Shown here: one piece after another, positions 7,525 to 40,000 of the stretch
Numbering within the stretch: the first letter of the stretch is position 1
How the letters are laid out: every line of letters starts with the position of its first letter
NCBI RefSeq assembly: GCF_050472005.1
Contig: NZ_JBGOGS010000001.1
Location: 1,279,935 to 1,319,934 of the forward strand
Length of the DNA stretch: 40,000 nt
From: Symbiopectobacterium sp. RP
GTDB taxonomy: Bacteria > Pseudomonadota > Gammaproteobacteria > Enterobacterales > Enterobacteriaceae
Direction of reading: 5' to 3'
Made by a program: the position numbers and the translations under genes
Notes under the pieces: generated by a model
What the model was told of the DNA's origin: nothing
Databases searched by the model: none
Seen by the model: the letters and a program-made list of their open reading frames with translations, nothing else

Positions 7525-8435
7525 TATCGTGATCCTTTATTAAGTTTTGCCTTGAGTGCGCGATAGGCTTCCGTGTCACCTTTGCTTGCTGCCGCTTCCA
7601 TCTGTCTGCGAATGGCGTCGGTGTTAGCCGCCATCACATCACCTGCAATGGATTGGTCAGCCGGGGGCGCGGAGGAAACCTGAGTCCCGCGAGGCTTGAG
7701 AGTTAATTGCTCAGATAGTCGAGTGAGTTCGATGAGTGCGCGTTGACCGTCAAGCGCCAGGATTCGGCGTAATTTCTCTGGGTTTGCGCCCAGGTGATAC
7801 ATGATGGCCGCCGACTTTTCAGGAAAGAGATCCATAATGGTAGTGTCCACGCCTGCCGGGACTAACTGCCGGAACGCATCTTCTTTCTCCTGATAGTCGG
7901 GAAGATTGAGTTTCTCTGCCGAATCGTAGTGCTTACGCGCCGCTTCAACGTATTGCGCTGATTGCTGGGTGAATGCTTGAGTTTTTCGCCCTTGCTCCGC
8001 TACTGCGTTGCTACGAGCGTCCATCGCCTTGATTTGCCAGTCAGACTGAGCGGCCTGGAATGCCGCCAGCGCTCGACCCTGATCAAAGCCGTACTTCTCC
8101 ATTGCAGCATCAGACAGATAATCATTAATGTCTGGCTGAGGCGGTAACTCAGGATTAACCCGCAAATTCTCCGGCACCTCGCCACGTTGAACCGCCTGCA
8201 TCTGCTGTTCAATCTCACGCTGCCGCTTACGCTCAAGGCGTTTAGCTGCAAACCTGGCATTGGTTTCCGGGTCTTGTTTCGGTTTTGTCTCATCGTCTTT
8301 CAGGACAATCTCAAAGCCTGCATCCTGCGACTGTGCGTCGTTGGCATTTGGCGCTGTATCGACTGCGGTTGCCGCCGCATTATCGACGTGCAGGGGTTGG
8401 CCTTCAGTTTCCTGAATTTCGGTGGTATCGGTCAT
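7524..8435 (-). CDS. Scaffolding protein, P22 gp8 homolog (303 aa)
   Basis: Same length as P22 gp8. Acidic, Ala/Gln/Glu-rich helical protein between the portal and coat genes. Confidence 0.85.
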
Positions 8436-19979: not shown

Positions 19980-20180
19980 CTACCCCCACATCTTGTTGAG
20001 CATTGAGCGTGGTGTTAGTTTGAGGTACTGCTGTTCGGGAAGGGTGACAACGATATCCCAATATTTGGGGTCGCGGCTCAGTGACCTGGCAGCGCGATAG
20101 CCGTTGTCTTTGTAGTGCCTGACGAGTAGCTCCGCCTCTTCACCGGTTAAGCCGTCGTACCTGAAACTGGTTTTCTTCAT
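19980..20180 (-). CDS. Hypothetical nin-region protein (66 aa)
   Basis: ATGA overlap with the NinB stop and a GGGAGAG SD. Family not recognised. Confidence 0.5.
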   Translation of the reverse strand: MKKTSFRYDGLTGEEAELLVRHYKDNGYRAARSLSRDPKYWDIVVTLPEQQYLKLTPRSMLNKMWG

Positions 20181-20614
20181 CCGACTCTCCCAAAATAATC
20201 CCCGGAATAACGCACCTCCCGCCGCCTGACACCGTTGCCAACCGACCAGGCCTGGGCATACTCAATCAAACTGTTCATGCGCTTTACGCCCATCTGAGCC
20301 GTGCTCTCGCGGATGCTGCAAAACTCCCCCTCCAGCCCCGTCACCACCTCCCCCGGCCTGCCGGTAGCGATGGCATGTCCCGAGACAAACAGCGCCTTCC
20401 AGTCCAGCAGCGAGTGGGGTTTATCGGCCCACACCACCTGACGCGAAACATCGGTGCATAACGCATGGAACAGGTCGTTCTGCGGTAATGTCCGTTTAGC
20501 ATCGTTGACGGTAATTTCGAGAGGGCGGTGTGGGTCGGTGGGCAGGGAATCAATAAAGGCTTTCAGGTTTTTTCGTATTCGTTCATCACGCAGCAGGAAG
20601 CGTGTTTTATCCAT
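20177..20614 (-). CDS. ninB: NinB/Orf-family recombination mediator (145 aa)
   Basis: ATG 20614 after GGAGGGTGAC. R.LPQNDL.HALC.DVSRQV.W and STAQM.V..M..LIEY.QAW parallel lambda NinB (146 aa). Confidence 0.8.
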   Translation of the reverse strand: MDKTRFLLRDERIRKNLKAFIDSLPTDPHRPLEITVNDAKRTLPQNDLFHALCTDVSRQVVWADKPHSLLDWKALFVSGHAIATGRPGEVVTGLEGEFCSIRESTAQMGVKRMNSLIEYAQAWSVGNGVRRREVRYSGDYFGRVG

Positions 20615-20615
20615 G

Positions 20616-20801
20616 TCACCCTCCGCTTCTGGCGCGAAGCCTTCTGTCATGCTCTATCAACTTTCCAATAAGTGATAGAATGAAGTTGATTTTTTGCTCG
20701 CCATGAGTTATCTCATAGCGTTGTAACAACGCCACCTCTGGCCTGTCCGCGTTACTCAATATCGTGGATATATCATTCAAATAGGGAGTTAACTTATTCA
20801 T
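20616..20801 (-). CDS. Hypothetical protein (61 aa)
   Basis: ORF with AAGGAAAG upstream. First gene after the rex cassette on the PR strand. Confidence 0.4.
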   Translation of the reverse strand: MNKLTPYLNDISTILSNADRPEVALLQRYEITHGEQKINFILSLIGKLIEHDRRLRARSGG

Positions 20802-21090: not shown

Positions 21091-21930
21091 ATGAAAATCG
21101 GTTTTTATGCATTTTATAGTCAAAAAAACAAAAGTAAAGATAAGTCGGGGATAAAAATGCTTGATTTTCTCCTTCATCAGGCAACTCATAGTAATTCATT
21201 ATCTCATGGTGCTGACTATCTTTATCTTCATAACATTGATAATAAAACATTTCTTTTTACAAAAACAAACGACAACAGTCTTATACAAAAAATAAACAGG
21301 TCAAGCGCTTCCATAGAGGATATTAAAAAAAGCCTCGCGGATGATGAATCTCTTGGCTTTCCCGCATTCGTTTTCGTAGACGAAGATGTTATCGGATTTG
21401 CAAGGACAGTTTATGGACCGACTACCACTGATTTAATAGATTTTTTACATGGTAAAAATATTGCTATCGAAGATGGATCCAAGGTGCAACTAGAACCACT
21501 GATGAAAAGCACAACAAAGAAAGATGTTATGACAATGAGCTTCATAGGCAGAACCACAGTCAAAATAGAGTCTAACACCACGATATTTGTCGATATAATG
21601 AGAGCGTTAGGGGCCAAGGACATTGAAGATGAGCTATTTGATTCCATTGAGGTGATAATCAAACCAAAGCACAGAAGGGATATCAAATCAGCGACAAGAG
21701 ACATTGTAAACAATCCAAATCCTCCTTACTCTGAAATTAGCATGAGAGCTAGAGAAGAGGCTGGTGATATCCTTTCAGAGCATTATCTATCAGAAAAGGG
21801 TCATCTTTCAGCAATCATTGAAAAGGCCACAAATGCCGAAATTGCTGAGGAAATGAGTTATTGCTTCACAAGAATGAAATCCTCTATAGTAAGCTGCTTT
21901 AATCGCCAAATAGGCACACTATCACGCTAG
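21091..21930 (+). CDS. rexA: RexA homolog (279 aa)
   Basis: Same length as lambda RexA. Shared strings as recalled: GFYA.Y..KNK.KDK, KTFLFTKTND.SL.QKINRS.AS.EDIK.SLADDESLGFP, IGFARTV.GPTT.DL.DFL, EAGDIL.EHYLSEKGHLSA, NAEIAEEM.YC..RMKS. AT-rich. Confidence 0.88.
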   Translation: MKIGFYAFYSQKNKSKDKSGIKMLDFLLHQATHSNSLSHGADYLYLHNIDNKTFLFTKTNDNSLIQKINRSSASIEDIKKSLADDESLGFPAFVFVDEDVIGFARTVYGPTTTDLIDFLHGKNIAIEDGSKVQLEPLMKSTTKKDVMTMSFIGRTTVKIESNTTIFVDIMRALGAKDIEDELFDSIEVIIKPKHRRDIKSATRDIVNNPNPPYSEISMRAREEAGDILSEHYLSEKGHLSAIIEKATNAEIAEEMSYCFTRMKSSIVSCFNRQIGTLSR

Positions 21931-21951: not shown

Positions 21952-22383
21952 ATGCGTAACAAAATAATGCCCGGGATTTGCATTGTAGCCATCCCTTACC
22001 TCTTTGTTTTTACTTCATATTTTATTTTTCGTCATTATCTGCCAGGCGTGTCTTTTTCTTCCCATAAAGATGGACTTGGTGCCGCATTGTCATCTTATGC
22101 AGGAACAATGATAGCAATCCTGATCGCAGGAATGACGTTTATGATAGGAAGCAGAACCAGAAAGTTAAGTAAGATTCGAGAATACGGATACATGACCTCT
22201 GTAGTCATCGTGTATGCACTAAGTTTTGTTGAGCTTGGTGTGCTTTTCTTTGCTGGCGTTCTTTTGATCTCAAGTATCGACGGCTACATGCTGCCAACGG
22301 TTGCCATCGGGATAGCTGCTGCCTCATTTGCTCATATATGCATGCTTGTAATTCAGCTTTATAACTTTACGCATGAATCCTGA
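21952..22383 (+). CDS. rexB: RexB homolog, polytopic membrane protein (143 aa)
   Basis: MRN.IMPG..IV.IPY....... FRHY.PGVSFS.H.DGLGA.LSSYAGTMIAILIA..TF.IGSRTR.L.KIREYGYMTSVVIVYALSFVELG matches lambda RexB (144 aa) as recalled. Confidence 0.9.
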   Translation: MRNKIMPGICIVAIPYLFVFTSYFIFRHYLPGVSFSSHKDGLGAALSSYAGTMIAILIAGMTFMIGSRTRKLSKIREYGYMTSVVIVYALSFVELGVLFFAGVLLISSIDGYMLPTVAIGIAAASFAHICMLVIQLYNFTHES

Positions 22384-22618: not shown

Positions 22619-23995
22619 CTAGACGTCAGCGCCTTTTGCGTACCTGCGTACGCTGGTTTCTGTCTGCTGCCTTGTCGTGCACTTCTCCCGCGCTTCGTCC
22701 TGGTCGCACTCAATGAAATGACCGTTAACGAATCGCTGATAGACGGTGCCGAGTGAGCCAAAGCGGTTTTTTGTGACGATGATTTCTGCGAATGGAGCGG
22801 CGGGTGAATTCTCGTTATACACCGCGTCGCGGTAGAGCATGATGATTGAGTCGGCATCCTGTTCAAGGCTGCCAGAGTCACGCAAATCGGCGTTGGTCGG
22901 GCGCTTGTTAGGTCGCTTCTCAATGTCTCGTGATAGCTGACCAAGCGCGATCACTGGCGTTCGCAGCGTCTTGGCCATTGCCTTTAGGCTCCATGAGATA
23001 TGGGCTATGGCAAGGTCGTTACGCTCCGCTTTCGGTTTGGCGATCAGCCCGAGATAGTCTGCCATGATCAGCGATAGCGCTGGGTGCTCCTGTTTGTGCC
23101 GCCTGGCAATGGCTACGATTTCCTCCACCGTCAGGCGGCAAGCATCAACGACCCATACGTCAAGATCTGCCAGTCGGTTAATCCCGTCAACAATCCTCGC
23201 CCATCCCTCATCGTCAAGGTTTGAAGGGTTACGCAGCAGACTTACCGACATCCGCCCTGCCCCGGCTATCGAACGCTCAGCTACCTGTAGAGAACTCATT
23301 TCCATGCTGAAAATCAGAACGCCCCTCCGCTGGTTCTCCCCGGGTAACTTCCGGTTTGCCACGCCTTCGGCAACCTTAAGCGCCAGTTCAGTTTTCCCCA
23401 TTCCGGGCCGGGCGGCGACGATCACTAAATCCTCAGCGTTCATCCCCCCGGTGATCGCGTCCAAGTCGTCAATGCCTGTTTTCAGCGTGTCGGACTCTTC
23501 CCCGTTTTTCAGGCGGCGCGCTAACGTGTTGGTGTATTCGGAGATGATGTCTCCAAGGCGAACCGGCTTCACTTCCTGCTTCGGCTTTCGAATGCCTGAC
23601 AGTCTGCCGATAAGTTCGTCCATCGCCACGGTAGCCACTTCAATCGATGAATTTCCGATTGTCCCGCGCAGCTTGTCAACAGCCGAAACGAACATCCGGC
23701 GCTGGTACATCTCAGTCACCATGTCGGCATAGCCCCGCAGGTTTGCAGCGCTGGGGCAGCTACGCGCCGTTTCCATGATGTAGGCAAAATGCTCATCGCC
23801 ACATTCCTCGGCAACCATCAGGGAATCAATCATGTTTCTGGTGCGAGCCTGTTTACGGATCACCTCATAGGCTCGTTTGTAAATCGGGATCTCGAAGGTT
23901 TCCGCCTCCAGCGTTGCCAGAACCTCAGTTGCCGTTGGCGTTAAACCGCCGATCAGCAAACCACCAATCACGCTGGCCTCGATATCCTGTCTCAT
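22619..23995 (-). CDS. DnaB-type replicative helicase, P22 gp12 equivalent (458 aa)
   Basis: Walker [10 protein letters not shown], DnaB C-terminal motifs ([26 protein letters not shown]). Same length as P22 gp12. Confidence 0.95.
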
Positions 23996-26254: not shown

Positions 26255-26333
26255 AGTATACATAACGTAATCAGATTGCACAACATGATTATCCATTATG
26301 TGTATTTATTGGTTTTTATACAAAGCGTATAAT
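26255..26333. promoter_or_regulatory. OR region with PR and PRM candidates
   Basis: Operator arms AGTATACATAACG (26255-26267) and CATTATGTGTAT (26294-26305). PR (minus): TTGTGC-17-TATACT. PRM (plus): TATAAT at 26328-26333, 6 nt before the cI ATG. Confidence 0.6.
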
Positions 26334-26339
26334 AAAGAA

Positions 26340-26756
26340 ATGGAAAGAGCTAAATGGCATGAAGTCGCTAAAGCCCGGATGAGGGCTTTGCGCATAACAC
26401 AAGATGAGTTAGCGGAACGCTTGGGTGTCACAAAGGGTGGAATTAGTCACTGGCTAAATGGACGGCGTGAGCCTCGAATAGAGGATTTTTGTAAGATAAT
26501 GGCGATCTTGGGTTTGAACAAACTCATTCTTAATAATGATGGCTCATTATTGGTAGATAATGAGCGTGAAGCCATGTCTCCTACAACATCCTCTATACCC
26601 ACCTTGACTGAGGAAAAGCTAGAACTTCTCAAGCTGTTTGATGACTTACCTGAAGTCGAAGCTAAGCGTTTTCTTGTAGAGATGAAGATCAAAAAGACAC
26701 ACTATGATGCTCTTTTTGAAGAGATGTACAAAAAAAGAAAACAAAAAGTGCTATAA
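26340..26756 (+). CDS. CI-like prophage repressor, HTH only, no S24 peptidase domain (138 aa)
   Basis: From ATG 26340. XRE HTH ITQDELAERLGVTKGGISHWLNGRR. C-terminal 70 aa are charged and helical. No Ala-Gly site or Ser/Lys protease module seen. Confidence 0.75.
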   Translation: MERAKWHEVAKARMRALRITQDELAERLGVTKGGISHWLNGRREPRIEDFCKIMAILGLNKLILNNDGSLLVDNEREAMSPTTSSIPTLTEEKLELLKLFDDLPEVEAKRFLVEMKIKKTHYDALFEEMYKKRKQKVL

Positions 26757-32290: not shown

Positions 32291-32897
32291 TGAATGGTTT
32301 TCCGCCCGTTGTGGCAACGTGACCGCCAGTCGCCTGTCTGACGTAATGGCAAAAACCAAATCGGGCTATTCCGCCAGCCGCCAGAACTACATGGCAGAGC
32401 TTATCTGCCAGCGCCTAACAGGAAAGGTGGAAGAAAGTTACGCAAACTCGGCCATGCAGCACGGCACTGAACTTGAACCGGTGGCGCGGGAGATGTACCT
32501 GCTTAACCAGTTTGACGCAGAAGTTACAGAAGTGGGATTTATTCCCCATCCAGAGATCGTAGGATTTGGGGCGTCGCCTGATGGCCTGGTCGGAAATGAT
32601 GGCCTGATAGAAATAAAATGCCCCAACACATGGACGCATTTAGAAACCATCAAGACAGGTAAGCCGAAAAAACAATACCTCCTACAGATGCACGCCCAAA
32701 TGATGTGTACGGGCAGGAAATGGTGTGATTTTGTCAGCTATGACGACAGGCTACCGCCAGACCTTGCCTATTACCAGTTGAGAATTCATCAGGACGATAA
32801 ACGGGTTGCTGAAATAGAGGAGGCGTTAAGGCAGTTTCTGACTGAGCTTGAAAACGAACTTGAGGTTATTAGACAGTTAGCCAAGGTAGCAGCATGA
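32274..32897 (+). CDS. YqaJ/lambda-exonuclease-type recombination exonuclease (207 aa)
   Basis: ATG 32274 after GAGGTGG. QRSDEWF..R.G.VTAS ... GASPDGLV.. DGLIEIKCP ... Y..Q.. QM..TG fits the PD-(D/E)xK YqaJ pattern. Confidence 0.88.
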   Translation: MQQRSDEWFSARCGNVTASRLSDVMAKTKSGYSASRQNYMAELICQRLTGKVEESYANSAMQHGTELEPVAREMYLLNQFDAEVTEVGFIPHPEIVGFGASPDGLVGNDGLIEIKCPNTWTHLETIKTGKPKKQYLLQMHAQMMCTGRKWCDFVSYDDRLPPDLAYYQLRIHQDDKRVAEIEEALRQFLTELENELEVIRQLAKVAA

Positions 32898-32908
32898 GGG
32901 GGTTACTG

Positions 32909-33064
32909 ATGAAAGAATTCATTGCCAGCATTAATAAAACACTCGCTCTCGTATTAGCCACGCTGACATTATCCTGGGTGATAGGGTTTGGTCTGACCGC
33001 GGGCTTCGTCATGGCACTTGAGGTATGGAAACGAGTGGTAGAAATCACTAGCAGACATCTTTAA
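32909..33064 (+). CDS. Small membrane protein (51 aa)
   Basis: Hand-translated: MKEFIASINKTLALVLATLTLSWVIGFGLTAGFVMALEVWKRVVEITSRHL. GAGGGGG upstream. Two hydrophobic stretches. Confidence 0.5.
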   Translation: MKEFIASINKTLALVLATLTLSWVIGFGLTAGFVMALEVWKRVVEITSRHL

Positions 33065-33474
33065 CCGCCCCACAGTTTCGGAAGTACGTCTTTAAACAAC
33101 AAACTCAGAATACCCGCCAGTAAGAACCATTGAAGACGGTCAAATTTAATTTCAAGACGGTCAAATCGCTTTTCGGAAAAATCTAGTCGCTTGTCTATCT
33201 GGCCAATATCCTTACGCACATCGGCTATCTCTGCGGACAGGTCCTTGCGGACATCGGCTATCTGCGCCTCAGTTTTCTCGAAGCGTGCGTCAACCTTATC
33301 GAAGCGGGCGTCAATTTCCTTACGAACGTCGTCAAGGTCACGCTTGGTAGCCACATCCGCCACCTCATGAGACTTGCGTACGACGAGCGAAATCGCCTTG
33401 GCCTGCTCACTGGTAAGCCCGGCGGTTTGAAGCTCTTCTGACGCCTGCAATGTATCAAATGCAACCTGGCCCAT
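33061..33474 (-). CDS. Coiled-coil protein with C-terminal TM anchor (137 aa), antisense in the PL operon
   Basis: ATG 33474 after AGGAGG. Repeated IADVRKD heptads. C-terminal WFLLAGILSLLF. Resembles the DUF1640-type architecture (from memory, unverified). Confidence 0.6.
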   Translation of the reverse strand: MGQVAFDTLQASEELQTAGLTSEQAKAISLVVRKSHEVADVATKRDLDDVRKEIDARFDKVDARFEKTEAQIADVRKDLSAEIADVRKDIGQIDKRLDFSEKRFDRLEIKFDRLQWFLLAGILSLLFKDVLPKLWGG

Positions 33475-33623
33475 AGCGGATCCTCCTGTATTAAGCCAAG
33501 TGTAAGCGATCTGACCGCCAACCTGCAAAATTTTACAAGTTAGCCCCCTGACCCTGCTTTTTATGTCACTTTTTTCACCGTTTTAATTGTCGTCAGACAC
33601 ATAAACAACCTCGGAGAGAATTA

Positions 33624-33821
33624 ATGTACAAAATAACGGCAACTATCAAAAAGCCCGCCGGACTGGATGTTCAGTGGCTACGGTTCTCTAAGGTGAAACT
33701 CACCATGTCAGAATGCGAAAAACTGCTCTTTAAGCCTAAGGAGACAGGTAAGTCGTTCGGCGATAAGGTGAAACTGGAGGATTTCCGCTGCGTCAGGGTG
33801 AAAAACAGGGATACGTGGTAA
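33624..33821 (+). CDS. Hypothetical protein (65 aa)
   Basis: GGAGAG upstream. Family not recognised. Confidence 0.45.
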   Translation: MYKITATIKKPAGLDVQWLRFSKVKLTMSECEKLLFKPKETGKSFGDKVKLEDFRCVRVKNRDTW

Positions 33822-33857
33822 ATAGCACAATAAACCATCCCATTGACGCAAGGAGAA

Positions 33858-33955
33858 CCCATGCGCTCGAAAAATGGCAACAGGCGAACGTTAGCCAGTT
33901 CCTGCAGCGCCACTAATCACTAATCCCGCCCCGGGATCGTGCCGGGGCTTCATTA
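33858..33955 (+). repeat. ~98-bp direct repeat, copy 1 (left border of the AT-rich island)
   Basis: Matches 37753-37850 at about 90 percent. Contains a gene 3' end (..ALEKWQQANVSQFLQRH stop) and the hairpin GCCCCGG-N7-CCGGGGC. Confidence 0.85.
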
Positions 33956-34457
33956 ATCACATTCACTTGTGTTAGCGAAATACTACAGGAGACGTGGGAA
34001 TCAGCTGATGACTGGTTCCAATCGTAATAAAACCCCATCTAAGTAGGACATTCTGAGGTGCATTATTTTTTCTATAAAAATCATAACCATAAAGAATAGA
34101 ATATTTTTAGGAATATTTTGTTGTCATTTTTGTTGTTAATGATATACCCAATAAACCTCAAGATGCAGGTTTGAGCACCTGAAAACGATCGTGAATTCTG
34201 GACGTCAGCGAGTCCGCTATTTCTGGTAGCGTATTGGTGAAAAAATTGAATATTGCATCGGCTTTGTTGAATAAATAGATTTTATGCTGGCAGCCCAGCG
34301 AAACGACGGATCCTCGCAACGTAAAATCATGCAGTTAGGCCTCATGAGAAAAGTGTACACCTGAGATGACAAGCATTTTCAACCAAAACTGGCATGGAAA
34401 AACAGCATGATTACCTATTATTCAACAAAGCCGTTCCGCTTGACAAAAGGGGTAGCA

Positions 34458-34490
34458 TGGTGGGTTGTGCAGGATTCGAACCTGCAACCG
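34458..34490 (-). other. tRNA 3'-end fragment (T-arm, acceptor 3' strand, CCA); att-site remnant
   Basis: Minus strand reads GGTTGCAGGTTCGAATCCTGCACAACCCACCA. It differs at 2 positions from the E. coli tRNA-Lys(UUU) 3' end as recalled. No D or anticodon arms upstream. Confidence 0.7.
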
Positions 34491-34582
34491 AAATTTTTTA
34501 TCTTATTGATTATAAATAATTTATTAAAAAGTGAATTTACTGCGGCTCTTTTACGGCGCTTCCTCTGTCCGGGTGTAGTCGT

Positions 34583-35462
34583 CTAGCTCATAGCATTTTT
34601 AATGGCAGGTGCTTTTACCTTAGTTGGATCATCGGTTTTAAAGACCTTCAATCGTTTACTGAAGAACATCACTTCTGAGCCCTTATATCGCTCTTGAGCA
34701 CTGTAGTTTATTCCATACACTAATGATGATGCCTTATAAATACCTTGGATCTCAGGAGTATTATCGTAAGAAACAATCCATGGTGTTTTAATATCATTCT
34801 GTACTACTTTTGCAACATTAACATGGTCACCATGTTCATAATGGTTGATATATAATCCCTTACCTTTTATGTAATATGGCGGGTCTAAATATGTTAATGA
34901 TTTCTTAGGCAATTGAACAACTATTTTTTATGAAATCAATTGCATCCATGTTATACAAGTCTATTCTTTCACGGTTTTTTGATATTTTCTTTATCCGAGA
35001 AATTAAATCACTTTTGTTATAGCGAGCATCAAGCTTCCATTGCCCTTCTTGATTTTTACCACCAATCACACCGCCTTTTAATATTCCAGAACGATTTGTT
35101 CTATTAAGAAAAAAGGAAGAAAAACCAATTGTTAGCATATCATGGCCTTTGGGATTATTAATTATTTCTTTCTGTTTGAACCACTCATTCATTGTGACTT
35201 CAGTTCCTTCAATTAAAGTACACAGGTGGTCTGCATTATTTAATACAGTGTGCCAAAAGGCATAAACAGAAATATTAATATCATTAAGAATGATTTTTTC
35301 AGCTACATTTAAATGTAAAAGCTTCAGCGCTAAACCAGCCCCTCCAGCATATGGCTCTGCATAATGTATAGGCGAAAGCTTATTATCTTCAATAATCCGA
35401 AGCATGAAATTTGAAAGCTTGCCTTTGCCGCCAGGATAGCGAAGTGGGGTGTTAAAACGCAT
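34583..35462 (-). pseudogene. Dam-like (D12 class) N6-adenine DNA methyltransferase split by a frameshift
   Basis: The 185-aa part has PLRYPGGK, AEPYAGGAG and LNDIN. The 109-aa part has LDPPYY. The two frames overlap at 34905-34912, near a T6/A6 tract (34924-34929). Confidence 0.75.
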
Positions 35463-35541
35463 ATGATACCTCTAAATGTCAGTTCTAAAGTATATCAAAA
35501 AAAGGGCTTTATGGACATCACATAAAGCCCTTTGCAATCAA

Positions 35542-37275
35542 TCAGTTGCCAGACAGATACGAAGTGATAGTAGCAGAGTCAACGCCATGTCCATTTGTCA
35601 TAATAATTTTAAGATTTTTGATTAATTCATGCTTGAAACTATCGGATTCCAATAAGTGTTTATCGACCCAATATCGATAGGGATTATCTTTAACACGCCC
35701 TTTTACTTGTTCCAGGAACTCACGTGTATGGGCAAAATCTTTAAATAGTTTTCTAACCACTCCGCCATGGTTTTTGTTTGATTTTTTATAATTCTCTATC
35801 GAATTTTGTAAATCAATAGGGTGGTTACCTATGTTTAGCGTTGTAATTATATCTTGAGTTATTCTCATAAATACTGGTTTTGTAAATCCATTATTATTGT
35901 TCCAATATGTGTCATCAGGAGGTAAATTATATAAGAATTCAAAAATCATTTGATCTGGAGGAAGAATGCTTGGAAGCAAGCATAAGCTTCTCTCTTTTTT
36001 TGCTTTTTTTTGCATTATCACTGTTATCGAGAGCAACATCACCGTCTAAGATCACTAGGCTTTTAATAGTAAACTCAGGAATTTTTCTTGCCATTAAATC
36101 TAAGATAGCAGTACAGCTAATATTTATATTTCCTAATGTGTTCAATATTTTGTTTATTTTTCTATTATTTATCAATTGCTTGAAAAAATCGAAACCTTCT
36201 TTATCTTCAAAATAAACGTTAGCTTTTGGAAGGCTAATCTCATCATTGATTTTTACAGTTTCAACATGCAAATCAGCATTGATATCAGCCCAAGATAGAT
36301 TATCCTTTGTTTTTATATCACCATAAGTGTCTGTTAGGTATATTGTTTTAAATACGTTGGCATCTTGTTTAGAACGATTGAAAATACCTTCAATTATTAA
36401 TGGTGAGTGAGAAGTCATGATTATTTGCAAATCATATTTTTTAGCTGCTTTAGCTAGGATGTTAATTAATTCTAACTGAGCAGCAGGGAAGAGGCCTGCG
36501 TCCGCTTCATCAATTAATAAAATACCTCCATGATAATCAGCATAAAGTTCTTTCAGCCTTTTAAATGAAAATATTGCTTGAATTAATTGTCCTACATTAT
36601 CTTCACCAACAGAAACTGATTGGTGGTCATAATTATCGCCATGCACGACCATTGAATCAATCGTCCCTTTCGTGGCTGTTACTGAGCACCCATTATTTTT
36701 AAGTAAGAGTTGATTGCTCATTATTCTTATATCATCAGAATTTTCATTAAGATACTGAACATCCCTTGTTGAGTAATCAGTTCGGAGAGTAATAGGGAGA
36801 AGCCTGGCTAAGCTTAAAAAAATAACAGGATGGGTGACATTTCTACTTTGGTTTTTCCCTTGAATGGAATCATTACCCCTGACTATTGGCCTTGATTTAT
36901 CCCTGTCACTGTAGTCATATAGACCCAATGTTAGCTTTTCAAGATGTTTGTTAGATGCGCCATCATAAACACTAATTCTGACTTCCATTGAACCAGCAGT
37001 ATCAAATTTTTCTGAAAGTCTAAAATGTTCACTGAAAGCTGACTTGAAGCTGCCATTAGTTAATGTCTTATATTGTGTTAAATCAAACTCGGGGTTCTTG
37101 GACAAGTCTTTTGTAAAACTAAAAATCTAGGCGACAATACCAAGAATTGTTGATTTAGAAGTGCCATTTTTACCACAAATAACAGTTAGGCGAGAACCAA
37201 ATTCTATATTTATATTTTTTAGTCCACGAAATTTTACTACGTTTATTTTTTTAGTTTGGTTATTGGATTTGCCAT
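35542..37275 (-). pseudogene. OLD-family / PARIS-like ABC-type ATPase plus TOPRIM-like nuclease gene (~575 codons) with three disruptions
   Basis: ATG 37275 (GAGG upstream). Walker A GKNGTSKST, Walker B ILLIDEADAGL, TSHSP. C-terminal YFEDKEG and VILDGD (Glu plus DxD). Frameshift at A7 (37246-37252), in-frame TAG (37127-37129), frameshift in A8/A7 tracts (35995-36011). Confidence 0.65.
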
Positions 37276-37332
37276 GTTTGTACCTCGTTCCATGAAATGG
37301 ACACAAATTGCGGCCAATAATTCAGACATGGA

Positions 37333-37690
37333 TTATATTGTTATCTTCTTCAGGCTTGTTTGTCCATCATATTCCTTCAGATATGAGCCGTAGTGACGGG
37401 AAAGCATCTCTGGTCATTTATGTCCCATTTGAGTCGCAAGCCAGAACAAGTTTGTCCCCTGACTGATATGGCTTGTGGCGAATGTATGCCTGGTCTGATA
37501 TAGGTTTCTGTATCGAATACCTGCCTTTCGCAATGTAGGAACCCATGCTTTTTTTCTAATTGCGTCAGCACTGGCCCATGGTTTGTTACTTTTTGGATCT
37601 TCGAATATCGTTTCATCCTTCATAAAAGTGAAGAGTTTCTGGCTGGCTAGAGCTGCCAATGCCTCTTCAGTCAGTTCTACCTGAAGCTAT
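37333..37690 (-). pseudogene. Tyrosine-integrase 3' fragment with an in-frame TGA
   Basis: AWVPTLRKAGIRYRNLYQTRHTFATSHISQGTNLFWLATQMGHK, then TGA (37414-37416), then PEMLSRHYGSYLKEYDG in the same frame (R, H-x-x-R and Y-type catalytic region). The N-terminal two thirds are absent. Confidence 0.75.
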
Positions 37691-37752
37691 CGTGCTCAGA
37701 GAGATGCAGCAGATGCTTGAAGAAAGCACGCAGCAGCATTACGGTGTGATGA

Positions 37753-37850
37753 CCCACGCGCTCGAAAAATGGCAACAGGCTAACGTTAGCCAGTTCCTTC
37801 AGCGCCACTAATCACTAATCCCGCCCCGGTAACGTGCCGGGGTTCCATTA
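37753..37850 (+). repeat. ~98-bp direct repeat, copy 2 (right border of the island)
   Basis: Second copy. Here it is preceded by more of the same reading frame (..MQQMLEESTQQHYGVMTHALEKWQQANVSQFLQRH stop at 37809-37811). Confidence 0.85.
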
Positions 37851-37877
37851 TCGTTTTAACCAGCGAGGTATATCTGT

Positions 37878-38627
37878 ATGCAAAATTTAACCATTGCACA
37901 AACAGTAACCATGTCCAGCCGTGAGATTGCGGAGCTGACCGAAAAGCAGCATAAACACGTGCTGGAAGACTGCCGCAAGATGTTCGAGGCGCTCAATATT
38001 CAATCGGAGGACTTTTCCGCCGATTACAAAGACAGCAAAGGACGCACCTATCAGGAGTTTTTGCTTGACAAAGACCTGACAATGACGCTCGTCATGGGGT
38101 ACAGCATTGAGCTTCGCCATAAAGTCGCCAAGCGCTGGCGTGAGCTGGAAGAACACGCCAAGACCCCCGCTATCCCGCAAACATACCCCGATGCACTGCG
38201 CCTCGCTGCCGAATTAGCAGAGGAAACCCAGCAGCTAAAACTGATCAACAAAGAGCAGGAAGCAGAACTCCACGACCTCAAGAGCCTGTTCAAGGAGGGC
38301 ATGACCCCGACCCAGTTCTGTAAAATGCTCAACGGCGTCAATACCCAAAAGGTTAACGGCTGGCTCGCTGAGCGCCACTGGCTACACAACGAAAGCCAAT
38401 CCGGTACCCGTTGGCGGGCAACATCCTACGCTCGCGACAGATACCTGACTGAGCACCAGCATCTGATTGGCGTTCACGGTGCCGACGACTTCATTAAATA
38501 CCAGCCAGTATTGCTGCGTAAAGGTGCTGAACGCCTCTACGTCCTTTACCGCCGTGGCAAAGTGCCCATGAAACTCAACTGGAACGGCGATTTTACCCAC
38601 CAGAAGCACGTCAGCCTTGCATCGTGA
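37878..38627 (+). CDS. Rha-family regulatory protein (249 aa)
   Basis: N-terminus MSSREIAELTEKQHKHVLEDCRKM is Rha-type. C-terminal half is possibly ANT-like (TQFCKMLNGVNTQKVNGWLAERHWL). Confidence 0.7.
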   Translation: MQNLTIAQTVTMSSREIAELTEKQHKHVLEDCRKMFEALNIQSEDFSADYKDSKGRTYQEFLLDKDLTMTLVMGYSIELRHKVAKRWRELEEHAKTPAIPQTYPDALRLAAELAEETQQLKLINKEQEAELHDLKSLFKEGMTPTQFCKMLNGVNTQKVNGWLAERHWLHNESQSGTRWRATSYARDRYLTEHQHLIGVHGADDFIKYQPVLLRKGAERLYVLYRRGKVPMKLNWNGDFTHQKHVSLAS

Positions 38628-38639
38628 GAGGAGCAACGA

Positions 38640-38849
38640 ATGAAACCTAAAATACCTAACAGGATAAAGGAGCGGGAGAAGCTATTTAAACGCTTATACC
38701 GTGAAGGACTTATTCATGCAAAACGCATACGACGAACCGGTTATTTATCAATGCGGCTTTCTCACTACTGGCGCATGTTATCCAAAGATAACGGTCAGAG
38801 TTGGAAAACCATGAGTCACGCGACATACGACACCCAAATAGCAATATAA
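38640..38849 (+). CDS. Hypothetical basic protein (69 aa)
   Basis: GAGGAG upstream. Family not recognised. Confidence 0.45.
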   Translation: MKPKIPNRIKEREKLFKRLYREGLIHAKRIRRTGYLSMRLSHYWRMLSKDNGQSWKTMSHATYDTQIAI

Positions 38850-38864
38850 AAACAGGAGCACCCC

Positions 38865-39026
38865 ATGAATTATGCATTCGCGGGTCATGCTGCCCTCATG
38901 GGGAGCTATCACCCGCAAGAAACCCACCTGGATAAATGGGTTAAATGGCTGCGAAACGGATACCGAAAGCTTATCGCTATCCTCGAACAGCAAGGCAAGC
39001 CTCTACGACCTGCATCAGTACGTTAA
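38865..39026 (+). CDS. Hypothetical protein (53 aa)
   Basis: Hand-translated: MNYAFAGHAALMGSYHPQETHLDKWVKWLRNGYRKLIAILEQQGKPLRPASVR. AGGAG upstream. Confidence 0.4.
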   Translation: MNYAFAGHAALMGSYHPQETHLDKWVKWLRNGYRKLIAILEQQGKPLRPASVR

Positions 39027-39144
39027 CTAAGGCTGTTACAGCCTGAAATCCCCTTCACCCCCGCATTTCTTCGATTGGTCATTCCCCCGCCTGCCCGCCG
39101 TCATGACGAACGGCGCAGTGGCTTAATTTTAGCAGAGGTCAATT

Positions 39145-39384
39145 ATGGCATACATCACCTTATCCGAGTGGAATCGGCGGCAACCCCGTCCGCGCTGTAT
39201 GGAAACCGTCAGGCGATTGGTCAGGAGCGGAATGATTTTTCCCGCACCGATACGAGATGGGCGCGAGTATCTGGTTGAGGAAAATGCCTGCAAGCTCACC
39301 CAGAATAAAAACCTTCGCTCATCAGGTTACCTTCATCCCGCCCTGTTATCGAGGATAAAACATGGCACGCCGGAGAAGCCATAA
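39145..39384 (+). CDS. xis: Excisionase, lambda Xis type (79 aa)
   Basis: ITLSEWNRRQPRPRCMETVRRLVRSGMIFPAPIRDGREYLVEE parallels lambda Xis (LTLQEWNARQRRPRSLETVRRWVRECRIFPPPVKDGREYLFHE). Confidence 0.9.
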   Translation: MAYITLSEWNRRQPRPRCMETVRRLVRSGMIFPAPIRDGREYLVEENACKLTQNKNLRSSGYLHPALLSRIKHGTPEKP

Positions 39385-40000
39385 GAACCGCGATTTGCCG
39401 CCAAACCTGCAACCGCGCAATGGCGGCTATTTTTGCTACCGCGACCCACGCACCGGAAAAGAATATGGCCTGGGCCGCCATCGACAGGAGGCCATTACAC
39501 AAGCCCTCGCCGCTAATATGGCGATTTATGGCTCATCAAAACCATCACCGCTCGTTGACCGCATCAACGACACACAGGTGACCACAGTTAGCGAATGGAC
39601 TGAACGCTATCTGACGATACTCGAAGGACGGAAACTCAAGCCGACAACGATGAACGAGTACCATAAATACCTGAAGGCCGTTAATGCCCATTTAGGGGAA
39701 TTTGTTCTTCATAAAGTAGAAACCAAAGACATTGCCTCGTTCCTTAATCAGTGGGTAAACGCAGGGAAAGTGACAATGGCGAACTGCATAAGAGCGTTGT
39801 TACGTGACCTGTTTCGTGAAGCGATTGCTGAGGGGGTATTCAAAAGCAATCCAGCCGAAGCTACGCGCAACCAGCGTGTAGACATTCAACGTGAGCGCAT
39901 AACCCTGGACGCGTGGAGGCTCATACGCAAGGCCGCGGATACCTTACCTGCATGGGTCGGCCCCTGCCTTGACCTTGCTTTAGTCACCGGTCAACGTTTA
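39362..40000 (+). CDS. int: Integrase, lambda Int type; N-terminal 213 codons, continues past window end
   Basis: MARRRSHKNRDLPPNLQPRNGGYFCYRDPRTGKEYGLGR parallels lambda Int MGRRRSHERRDLPPNLYIRNNGYYCYRDPRTGKEFGLGR. LRDLFREAIAEG and LALVTGQR also match. Overlaps xis by 23 nt. Confidence 0.92.
   Translation, partial: MARRRSHKNRDLPPNLQPRNGGYFCYRDPRTGKEYGLGRHRQEAITQALAANMAIYGSSKPSPLVDRINDTQVTTVSEWTERYLTILEGRKLKPTTMNEYHKYLKAVNAHLGEFVLHKVETKDIASFLNQWVNAGKVTMANCIRALLRDLFREAIAEGVFKSNPAEATRNQRVDIQRERITLDAWRLIRKAADTLPAWVGPCLDLALVTGQRL

What the first reader, a model, noticed from the sequence alone, without database searches (positions are those of the whole stretch)
33858..37850. 3.8 kb AT-rich island with att and integrase remnants and defence-type genes, bracketed by ~98-bp direct repeats
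The same ~98-bp phage segment (a gene 3' end plus the hairpin GCCCCGG-N7-CCGGGGC) occurs at 33858-33955 and 37753-37850. Between the copies lies much more AT-rich DNA. Read on the minus strand, it carries an integrase 3' fragment (37690-37333), an OLD/PARIS-like ATPase-TOPRIM gene (37275-35542) and a Dam-like MTase (35462-34583). These are followed by a tRNA-Lys-like 3' fragment (34490-34458) and about 500 bp of non-coding flank. Integrase at one end and a tRNA 3' repeat at the other is the layout of a tRNA-integrated genomic islet. Here that layout is embedded in the PL operon of a phage, between the recombination genes and xis. This suggests the phage captured part of a chromosomal defence islet, including its attR side, and then recombined through the 98-bp module border.
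Basis: partly seen in the sequence, partly recalled or inferred. Interest (0 to 1): 0.7.

Follow-up and report, generated by a model that had tools for sequence, protein, structure and literature searches.

The report
Dead prophage fragment inside another prophage
The AT-rich island is a decayed leftover of the integrase end of a second temperate phage, carrying a now-dead two-gene defence cassette, lodged inside a P22-like prophage of an insect-symbiont bacterium; it is genome decay, not a working defence island.

Summary
Four points change the reading.

- **Source.** The window comes from Symbiopectobacterium sp. RP, a genus with heavy pseudogene loads.
- **Donor.** Window 34458-37680 is 92-94% identical to the integrase-proximal end of phiNP-family prophages. 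Their layout is xis-int-ATPase-MTase-att, and they integrate into ssrA, not tRNA-Lys. So the donor was a phage end, not a chromosomal islet.
- **State of the genes.** All three are dead. The integrase is truncated and has a stop codon. The ATPase has one stop codon and two frameshifts. The methylase has a -2 frameshift. The "flank" is insertion-sequence debris.
- **The repeats.** They are not insertion scars. They are two diverged copies of an antirepressor-cassette border that related prophages without the island also carry. Both true junctions (33971|33972 and about 37680|37681) lie outside the repeats.

In intact relatives the OLD-family ATPase-TOPRIM and the PD-lambda-5_B-like methylase form a widely conserved gene pair. 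That pairing is not among the described OLD classes, and it is the only moderately novel lead.

The parts
33857..33971 (+). Cassette border A. It holds the last 20 codons of the small gene X (repeat copy 1, 33857-33955), a GC hairpin at 33929-33947, and the leader TTCATTAATCACATTCACTTGTG, which is cut 3 nt before the ribosome-binding site of the gene it normally precedes.
   Evidence: One search gives the repeat. Searches show the same hairpin and leader directly upstream of Rha/ANT genes in L081, L082, L208 and L209. The window diverges from them at 33972.
33972..34128 (.). 157 nt of AT-rich sequence of unknown origin, just inside the left junction.
   Evidence: No match in phages, E. coli genomes, IMG/VR or any fetched locus.
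34129..34259 (-). Terminal fragment of an IS630-family (ISEc40-like) element: the 3' end of its transposase gene.
   Evidence: 80-84% identity to ISEc40 copies in several hundred E. coli genomes. One search places the match on the transposase 3' end.
34259..34433 (.). Miniature transposable element (~175 bp) with IS903-like 31-nt inverted ends at 34259-34289 and 34403-34433. It has no target-site duplication.
   Evidence: Inverted repeat I1. Copies at 70-73% identity in E. coli and in S. purcellii L081 at 8110-8288. The resemblance of the ends to IS903 is from my own memory.
34458..34489 (-). tRNA-Lys-like 3' fragment (T arm, acceptor strand and CCA), sitting where relatives carry the ssrA 3' attachment core.
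   Evidence: 30 of 32 positions match E. coli tRNA-Lys(UUU). 31 of 32 match tRNA-Lys(UUU) genes with a GGGTTGT acceptor. Alignments with phiNP, Citrobacter, Salmonella and E. coli are.
34490..34582 (-). Non-coding arm between the methylase gene and the attachment core, homologous to the phiNP family.
34583..35462 (-). Dam-like (D12 class) N6-adenine methylase pseudogene, split by a -2 slip in the A-run at 34924-34929.
   Evidence: Intact relatives match PADLOC PD-Lambda-5_B at 1e-123.
35501..35533 (-). Terminator-like hairpin with a U-run, between the ATPase and methylase genes. Its 3' arm and T-run are seen in the E. coli relative.
   Evidence: The E. coli context is.
35542..37275 (-). OLD-family ATPase-TOPRIM pseudogene. 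It has a TAG at 37127-37129 (invariant Q50), a -1 slip at 37246-37252 and a +1 slip at 36004-36011.
   Evidence: The fold of an intact relative matches OLD and GajA over the full length.
37333..37680 (-). Integrase remnant: codons ~274-388 of a phiNP-type tyrosine integrase, with an in-frame TGA at 37414-37416.
37681..37877 (+). Cassette border B. It holds the last ~43 codons of X (repeat copy 2, 37752-37850), a hairpin at 37824-37842, and leader B, which runs into the Rha/ANT gene that starts at 37878. The annotated 50-aa ORF at 37659-37811 is a junction chimera.

Best explanation
**What it is.** The island (33972-37680) is a non-functional relic. It is the integrase-proximal end of a phiNP-family temperate phage, stranded inside a P22-like prophage of Symbiopectobacterium sp. 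RP.

**Shown**
- The layout int'-ATPase-MTase-att core is collinear with, and 92-94% identical to, intact prophage ends in Citrobacter and Salmonella, and 87% identical to those in E. coli.
- Every gene is inactivated.
- The outer flank is IS630 and miniature-element debris.
- The two 99-nt repeats are diverged copies of an antirepressor-cassette border (the 3' end of a small gene plus a GC hairpin). This border pre-exists in related prophages.
- Neither junction falls inside a repeat.

**Inferred route**
1. The incoming phage recombined at its attachment core with a tRNA-Lys-type sequence. That gave an attR-type joint: the phage arm up to TTTCGG, then 30 nt of tRNA-Lys 3' end. The target was probably a tRNA-Lys gene carried by the resident prophage itself. 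A related S. purcellii prophage has such a gene on the same strand in the same region.
2. One deletion then removed more than 90% of the incomer, from integrase codon ~273 to beyond attL, and fused int' antisense to gene X.
3. Insertion-sequence activity and point mutations did the rest.

**Function in intact relatives (inferred).** The ATPase-TOPRIM plus methylase pair probably works like a restriction-modification system. The methylase marks self DNA, and the OLD-type nuclease attacks unmarked or sensed invading DNA.
For: **Homology and collinearity.**

**Lesions.**. Two of them are base substitutions, so they are not homopolymer sequencing errors.

**Timing of decay.** dN/dS for the window copy against relatives is 0.09-0.12 for the ATPase, against 0.04-0.08 among intact copies. 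The decay is therefore recent.

**Source genome.** The junction-spanning 50-aa ORF and the Rha protein are each 100% identical to Symbiopectobacterium sp. RP proteins on a 2.67-Mb contig. Papers on this genus report heavy pseudogene loads.

**Insertion-sequence debris.**

**Cassette-border family**
- L003 has one copy. It is non-coding there and has the same left boundary.
- L081 has three hairpin elements.
- L082/L083 and L208/L209 have one hairpin directly upstream of Rha. These serve as the empty site.
- The six elements are aligned.

**Attachment core**
- The published phiNP attP is the 25-bp ssrA 3' end (PMC6456863).
- The window has a tRNA-Lys-like block of the same length at that position.
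- L081 carries a phage-borne tRNA-Lys gene on the minus strand beside the homologous coiled-coil ORF.

**The gene pair as a system**
- The methylase gene follows the ATPase gene directly in 37 of 37 distant loci where the downstream DNA is present.
- The pair also sits at an icd/e14-type attachment site with a different integrase.
- The methylase matches PD-Lambda-5_B at 1e-123.
- A confident AlphaFold2 model (pLDDT 88.5) has the T. scotoductus OLD nuclease and GajA as its top full-length matches.
- E357 and D411-x-D413 are invariant.
Against: - The switch from phiNP-like to tRNA-Lys-like sequence lies 5-7 nt upstream of the published 25-bp attP/attB identity block. A textbook integrase crossover inside that block does not produce this joint.
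- The fragment is closer to bacterial tRNA-Lys(UUU) variants (31 of 32) than to the phage-borne tRNA-Lys(CUU) of L081 (29 of 33). In L081 that tRNA also sits on the other side of the coiled-coil ORF.
- The 24 nt after CCA and the 157-nt stretch match nothing, so the nature of the target DNA is unproven.
- The source genome could not be read beyond the window.
- The methylase's only lesion is a homopolymer slip, which could be an assembly error.
- The restriction-like mechanism of the intact pair is inferred from domains and synteny only.
Confidence: 0.6

Rival explanations
1. A defence islet integrated at a chromosomal tRNA-Lys gene was partly captured by the phage together with its attR side and some chromosomal flank. 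It was then fixed in the phage by recombination through the 98-bp module border.
For: - The tRNA fragment matches bacterial tRNA-Lys(UUU) variants at 30-31 of 32 positions and includes an encoded CCA.
- The flank beyond it is unlike the phiNP P' arm.
- That flank is full of insertion-sequence debris, which is more typical of chromosomal DNA.
Against: - The donor segment is a phage end whose examined relatives all use ssrA.
- Both junctions lie outside the repeats, and the two repeat copies carry different leaders.
- The repeats exist in relatives that lack the island.
- The island is not next to the host phage's own int-att, as it would be after aberrant excision. Rha, other ORFs and xis lie between them.
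- No chromosomal match was found for the flank.
Confidence: 0.2
2. Cassette import. The island was first assembled in another lambdoid prophage of the same host. It then moved into this prophage by homologous recombination between the conserved antirepressor 3'-end and hairpin borders. On this view the repeats are the recombination substrates even though the island's own junctions are older.
For: - The border elements are repeated and 90-93% alike across prophages of Symbiopectobacterium and relatives, and they occur in arrays.
- The sp. RP genome holds at least one more Rha-type prophage copy, P0135.
- The two copies differ by 7% and carry different leaders, as expected if they come from different parents.
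Against: - No second prophage carrying the island was found.
- This model only moves the question of how the phiNP-like end first entered a prophage to another element.
Confidence: 0.15
3. A working, possibly phase-variable, defence island. The homopolymer differences are sequencing errors or reversible slips, and the ATPase and methylase are expressed.
For: - All three frameshifts lie in A-runs of 6-8 bases.
- dN/dS is still low.
Against: - The ATPase has a substitution-type TAG at the invariant Q50, and the integrase has a substitution-type TGA.
- The integrase lacks its first ~273 codons.
- Three independent slips would all have to be errors.
Confidence: 0.03

Closest known systems
Integrase-attachment end of Citrobacter phage phiNP and related ssrA-integrating prophages of Citrobacter, Salmonella and E. 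coli
   Same: The order int-ATPase-MTase-attachment core is the same, on one strand. Nucleotide identity is 87-94% over 3.2 kb, including the non-coding arm up to TTTCGG.
   Different: - The window copy keeps only the last ~115 integrase codons.
- All its genes are broken.
- The ssrA-type core and the 5 nt before it (30 nt in all) are replaced by a tRNA-Lys-like block of equal length.
- It lies inside another prophage, not next to ssrA.
PD-lambda-5 (Vassallo et al. 2022, PMC9519451)
   Same: The methylase belongs to the same family: PADLOC PD-Lambda-5_B at 1e-123 over the full length. It is a prophage-borne two-gene unit. A PD-lambda-5-type pair of this methylase family with a ParB/Srx protein was seen in E. 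coli locus L206.
   Different: PD-lambda-5 component A is a ParB/HEPN protein (paper supplement). Here the partner is an OLD-type ATPase-TOPRIM, and PD-Lambda-5_A is not among its PADLOC hits.
OLD-family nucleases (P2 Old and T. scotoductus OLD, class 1; Gabija GajA, class 2)
   Same: - An N-terminal ABC ATPase (AAA_15, AAA_21, AAA_23).
- A C-terminal domain with an invariant Glu and DxD.
- The best full-length fold matches are 6p74 and GajA.
- Prophage-borne, like P2 old.
   Different: - The conserved partner is a Dam-like methylase. The published class contexts are a single gene, a UvrD-like helicase, a retron, or a split AriA/AriB (PMC10568477, PMC12392090).
- Pfam TOPRIM models do not match by sequence.
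Mosaic module borders and moron-type cassettes of lambdoid phages
   Same: A short conserved sequence made of a gene 3' end and a hairpin recurs between interchangeable small genes of the early-left region and flanks foreign DNA. The comparison with lambdoid boundary sequences is from my own knowledge.
   Different: Here the foreign DNA was not joined at the borders. Both junctions lie 16 and 71 nt outside the repeat copies.

Membership tests
OLD-family nuclease | N-terminal ABC-type ATPase with Walker A and Walker B motifs | tested here: met
   Pfam AAA_15, AAA_21 and AAA_23 match the intact relatives and the window fragments. GKNGTSKS and LLIDEAD are invariant.
OLD-family nuclease | C-terminal TOPRIM domain with a catalytic Glu and DxD | tested here: inconclusive
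   For: E357 and D411-x-D413 are invariant, in a strand-helix-strand layout. The PADLOC retron I-B ATPase-Toprim profile aligns across this region at 5.6e-12. The top Foldseek matches are OLD 6p74 and GajA over the full length, though TM-scores are only ~0.3. Against: no Pfam TOPRIM match even at E up to 10, and no PDB sequence match beyond the ATPase.
OLD-family nuclease | One of the four described genetic contexts (single gene, GajB helicase, retron, AriA/AriB) | tested here: not met
   The gene directly downstream is a D12-class methylase in 37 of 37 distant loci and in every enterobacterial relative examined. The classes are as listed in PMC10568477 and PMC12392090.
OLD-family nuclease | Intact reading frame in this window | tested here: not met
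   A TAG at 37127-37129 and two frameshifts.
PARIS (AriA/AriB) | A separate TOPRIM protein AriB next to the ATPase AriA | tested here: not met
   No second TOPRIM gene is present. The partner is a methylase. The AriA matches are partial, with PtuA and GajA models scoring about as well.
PD-lambda-5 | Component B methylase | tested here: met
   PD-Lambda-5_B at 1.2e-123, covering profile positions 1-283 of 291, for the intact E. coli relative.
PD-lambda-5 | Component A, a ParB/HEPN protein | tested here: not met
   The partner is an ABC ATPase. PD-Lambda-5_A is absent from the best 25 PADLOC hits. The description of A is from the paper's supplement.
Dam-like D12-class N6-adenine DNA methylase | MethyltransfD12 domain with a SAM-binding motif and a DPPY motif | tested here: met
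   Pfam PF02086 matches both window fragments. EPYAGGAG and LDPPYY are visible in the translations.
Dam-like D12-class N6-adenine DNA methylase | Intact reading frame in this window | tested here: not met
   A -2 slip at 34924-34929 separates the SAM-binding part from the DPPY part. The lesion is a homopolymer slip only, so an assembly error cannot be excluded.
tRNA-integrated genomic island | An intact tRNA gene at one end and a direct repeat of its 3' part at the other | tested here: not met
   No tRNA gene anywhere in the window. Only one 32-nt fragment is present.
tRNA-integrated genomic island | A complete integrase adjacent to the attachment site | tested here: not met
   Only codons ~274-388 remain, with an internal stop.
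tRNA-integrated genomic island | Relatives of the element use the same tRNA as their target | tested here: not met
   phiNP, two Citrobacter-type loci, two Salmonella loci and one E. coli locus all carry the ssrA 3' end. No phiNP-arm/tRNA-Lys joint was found in metagenome contigs, and no copy of the tRNA-Lys-type 3' end in IMG/VR.
Insertion with flanking duplication (target-site or staggered-crossover repeat) | The repeats abut the inserted DNA and derive from a single pre-insertion copy | tested here: not met
   The junctions are at 33971|33972 and about 37680|37681, which is 16 and 71 nt away from the repeat copies. The copies are 7% diverged and carry different leaders (A and B), both of which occur in island-free relatives.

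The most novel reading that the evidence does not exclude
In its intact relatives, the OLD-type ATPase-TOPRIM plus PD-lambda-5_B-like Dam methylase pair is an undescribed, restriction-modification-like defence system. That would make it a fifth genetic context for OLD nucleases. It travels as a two-gene cassette that repeatedly lands between integrase and attachment site in different prophages (ssrA-type and icd-type). It also occurs in beta- and gammaproteobacteria and in a Flavobacteriales genome. The same methylase family pairs alternatively with a ParB/HEPN effector (PD-lambda-5), which suggests a swappable "methylase + effector" design. The copy in this window would be a dead example of it.
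Probability: 0.4. Interest if true: 0.55.

Novelty: new member of a known kind. Interest (0 to 1): 0.3.

Why it matters
For this window the result is mainly a correction. What looks like a captured defence island is a pseudogenised scrap of one prophage inside another, in a symbiont genome known for decay. It should not be counted as a phage-borne defence system or as evidence of recombination at module borders.

Two side results could be useful.
- The conserved OLD-type nuclease plus methylase pair sits in the integrase-attachment hotspot of enterobacterial prophages. It can be tested directly by cloning an intact copy.
- A phiNP-type attachment core is joined to a tRNA-Lys-type sequence. If the target was a tRNA gene carried by the resident prophage, this would be a concrete case of one temperate phage integrating into another.

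Tried and rejected
**Searches that found nothing**
- Exact-protein look-ups of window proteins (Rha, ORF65, Bet, the coiled-coil ORF, and P0121/P0122). The source genome is not indexed there.
- Exact DNA patterns in IMG/VR: two from the repeat, one from the tRNA-like core and two from the junctions. All gave zero hits.
- A metagenome scan for the joint between the phiNP arm and the tRNA-Lys block: zero hits.
- BLAST of the host-phage flanks against the phage and E. coli collections. Only distant matches in phage genomes, none in E. coli; no close relative.
- Comparison of the flank with the phiNP P' arm: no similarity.
- tblastx of the 157-nt unknown stretch against all fetched loci: nothing.

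**Searches that missed their aim**
- The single genome-collection scan, run with the repaired ATPase, returned only 41-47% relatives. It therefore did not find the donor or the source genome. It did show that the ATPase-methylase synteny is conserved.
- Sequence-only searches for a TOPRIM domain failed: Pfam at E up to 10, and a PDB profile search.

**Ideas rejected**
- PD-lambda-5 membership: component A differs.
- PARIS membership: there is no AriB.
- The repeats as intrinsic terminators: neither hairpin is followed by a U-run, and the terminator scan does not flag them.
- The repeats as target-site duplications.

Full report

Yes. The repeat finder returns one long direct repeat in 32500-39500. 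The copies are 33857-33955 and 37752-37850, 99 nt long and 93% identical. Each copy contains a 7-9-bp GC hairpin, at 33929-33947 and 37824-37842.

GC content is 0.354 for 33972-37680. It is 0.495 for the rest of the window.

The minus strand carries, in order:
- an integrase 3' fragment;
- an ATPase gene;
- a D12-class adenine methylase gene;
- a 32-nt stretch that matches the last 32 nt of E. coli tRNA-Lys(UUU) at 30 of 32 positions.

ARAGORN and Rfam find no complete tRNA in the region.

**2. Where the window comes from**

Two proteins place the window on a 2,665,613-bp contig of Symbiopectobacterium sp. RP.
- The 50-aa ORF at 37659-37811 is 100% identical to a hypothetical protein of that genome. 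This ORF spans the right junction of the island, so it is specific to this rearrangement.
- The 249-aa Rha/ANT protein at 37878-38627 is also 100% identical to a protein of that genome.

The genus consists of insect- and nematode-associated symbionts. Papers on it report very high pseudogene loads (titles and abstracts).

The surrounding element is a P22-like prophage.
- Portal, terminase, scaffold and coat genes are about 76% identical to those of P22.
- The early-left genes include Bet/RecT-type and YqaJ-type recombination genes and xis. The start of int lies at the window's end, by collinearity with the int gene of L082.

**3. What the core of the island is**

Window 34458-37680 matches integrated prophage ends in four hosts:

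| Relative | Identity |
|---|---|
| Last 3.2 kb of Citrobacter phage phiNP | 92% |
| Prophage end in Citrobacter sp. | 93% |
| Prophage ends in Salmonella enterica | 94% |
| 85 E. coli chromosomes | 85-87% |

In all of these the order is xis, int (388 aa), ATPase (577 aa), methylase (293-299 aa), attachment core, chromosome. The donor was therefore the integrase-proximal end of a temperate phage, not a chromosomal islet.

The window copy is badly damaged.
- **Integrase.** Only codons ~274-388 remain. A GGC-to-TGA change gives a stop at 37414-37416.
- **ATPase.** There is a TAG at 37127-37129, which replaces a glutamine that is invariant in 35 family members. There is also a -1 slip in an A-run (37246-37252) and a +1 slip in another (36004-36011).
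- **Methylase.** A -2 slip at 34924-34929 separates its SAM-binding part from its DPPY part.

The two stop codons are base substitutions, so homopolymer sequencing error cannot explain them. dN/dS between the window copy and intact relatives is 0.09-0.12 for the ATPase, against 0.04-0.08 among intact copies. Inactivation is therefore recent.

**4. The attachment core**

The published phiNP attP is the 25-bp 3' end of ssrA (PMC6456863). phiNP, the two Citrobacter-type loci, the two Salmonella loci and the E. coli locus L002 all carry that sequence after a conserved arm that ends ...TTTCGGACGCT.

The window shares the arm up to TTTCGG. It then reads TTGCAGGTTCGAATCCTGCACAACCCACCA, a block of the same 30-nt length that is tRNA-Lys-like. 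A metagenome scan shows that real tRNA-Lys(UUU) genes with the GGGTTGT/ACAACCC acceptor stem exist. The window fragment matches them at 31 of 32 positions.

The switch point lies 5-7 nt upstream of the 25-bp identity block. A simple integrase crossover inside the block does not produce this joint, and this remains unexplained.

The sequence after CCA is unlike three candidates:
- the phiNP P' arm;
- the ssrA downstream region;
- the regions downstream of E. coli tRNA-Lys genes.

**5. The "flank"**

From the core outward the flank consists of:
- 24 nt that match nothing;
- a ~175-bp miniature element with 31-nt inverted ends (34259-34433) and no target duplication;
- the last ~130 nt of an IS630/ISEc40-like element (34129-34259);
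- 157 nt that match nothing.

**6. What the repeats are**

Related prophages settle this.
- **L082/L083 (Symbiopectobacterium sp. Eva_TO).** These are collinear with the window through RecT-YqaJ (92.6%) and the coiled-coil ORF. They then have one hairpin followed by TTCCATTAATCACATTCACTTGTG-AGGAG...ATG of Rha.
- **Window copy 1.** It shares this leader up to 33971 and then diverges. The left junction is therefore 33971|33972, which is 3 nt before the ribosome-binding site.
- **L003 (IMG/VR).** It has a single copy of the whole 99-nt element, with leader B, directly upstream of its Rha gene. The element is non-coding there because of an in-frame TAG.
- **L081 (S. purcellii).** It has three hairpin elements.
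- **L208/L209 (S. purcellii).** Each has one hairpin element.
- **Window copy 2.** It carries leader B and extends 71 nt further 5' into a small gene X. X is known only as 39-73-aa ORFs in Symbiopectobacterium and Sodalis. The right junction is about 37680|37681, where int' is fused antisense to X.

The C-terminal peptide of X, together with the hairpin, resembles the 3' ends of Rha/ANT-type genes in L083 and L208.

The repeats are therefore two diverged members of a cassette-border family that predates the island. They are not a duplication made by insertion, and the island was not joined through them (alignment).

**7. How it probably got there**

The joint falls exactly at the attachment core of the incoming element and exactly at the homologous T-arm position of a tRNA-like sequence. 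That points to attachment-site recombination, or recombination driven by T-arm homology, and not to a random break.

A related S. purcellii prophage carries its own tRNA-Lys gene. It is on the same strand and next to the homologue of the window's coiled-coil ORF. I therefore favour this sequence of events:
1. a phiNP-like phage integrated into a tRNA-Lys-type gene inside the resident prophage;
2. one large deletion ran from integrase codon ~273 through attL into X;
3. insertion-sequence activity and point mutations followed.

Two alternatives remain open because the source genome could not be read. One is capture from a chromosomal tRNA-Lys locus. The other is import of a pre-assembled cassette from another prophage.

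**8. What the gene pair is in intact relatives**

*ATPase.*
- It is an ABC/SMC-type ATPase (Pfam AAA_15, AAA_21, AAA_23).
- An AlphaFold2 model of a 94%-identical relative is confident, with mean pLDDT 88.5.
- Its best PDB matches over the full length are the T. scotoductus OLD nuclease and Gabija GajA. The ATPase-only PtuA proteins align over the N-terminal part only.
- E357 and D411-x-D413 are invariant.
- A retron I-B ATPase-Toprim profile aligns across that region.
- Pfam TOPRIM models do not match by sequence. I therefore call the TOPRIM assignment supported but not proven.

*Methylase.* It matches PADLOC PD-Lambda-5_B at 1e-123. PD-lambda-5's other component is a ParB/HEPN protein, and such a pair was seen in E. 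coli locus L206.

*The pair.*
- The ATPase-methylase pair is adjacent in 37 of 37 distant loci from beta- and gammaproteobacteria and a Flavobacteriales genome, without the integrase.
- It also sits between icd and a different integrase in E. coli L65.
- The published OLD classes do not include a methylase partner.
- A restriction-modification-like mechanism is the natural inference, but it is untested.

**9. Verdict**

The feature in this window is an ordinary product of prophage-on-prophage traffic and genome decay in a symbiont. The gene pair it once carried is the more interesting lead, and it is best studied in intact relatives.

Noticed in passing
window 21091-21930 and 21952-22383 (+): Apparently intact RexA (Pfam 3.6e-71) and RexB (7.2e-70) homologues. 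They lie between NinB (20177-20650, minus strand) and the DnaB-type helicase (22619-23995, minus strand), on the opposite strand to both. In lambda these genes sit next to the repressor gene.
   Followed up: partly
window 26298-26756 (+): The repressor-like ORF is 152 aa with an HTH_3 domain only and no Peptidase_S24 domain. S. purcellii L208 (3728-4186) has the same architecture. L082 and L209 have 215-218-aa HTH+S24 repressors instead.
   Followed up: no
L001 1-1086 (phiNP record OR565852.1, ~43850-44790): The phiNP GenBank record leaves an intact 293-aa Dam-like methylase ORF unannotated, between the ATPase gene and the ssrA attachment core.
   Followed up: yes
L205 2976-5615 (E. coli L65, NZ_CP034738.1): A second, more distant ATPase (569 aa) plus methylase (286 aa) pair lies between icd (an e14-type attachment site) and a different integrase. 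The pair therefore recurs in the integrase-attachment slot of unrelated prophages.
   Followed up: partly
L206 4901-7205 (E. coli 2015C-3107): A methylase of the same family lies convergent with a 467-aa ParB/Srx-domain protein, just downstream of antiterminator Q in a lambdoid prophage. This looks like a PD-lambda-5-type pair.
   Followed up: partly
L081 7590-7663 (-), S. purcellii CP189882.1: A phage-borne tRNA-Lys(CUU) gene lies next to the coiled-coil ORF of a lambdoid prophage. It has mismatches in both the acceptor and T stems, so it may itself be decaying.
   Followed up: partly
window 33857; L003 7871; L081 10094: Homology to gene X begins at exactly the same base (ACCCAC/TGCG) in three different upstream contexts. 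In one of them it directly abuts an IS30-family element. This recurrent breakpoint is unexplained.
   Followed up: no
L083 12037-15978 (Symbiopectobacterium sp. Eva_TO): Two P22-like prophages lie in tandem. The integrase gene of one is followed after 1.6 kb by the tailspike gene of the next, and an ANT-like ORF and a partial IS903-like end lie between them.
   Followed up: no
window 35501-35533 (-): A strong terminator-like hairpin (13 pairs plus a U-run) lies between the ATPase stop codon and the methylase start codon. Its 3' arm and T-run are seen in the E. coli relative. The methylase gene may therefore have its own promoter.
   Followed up: no
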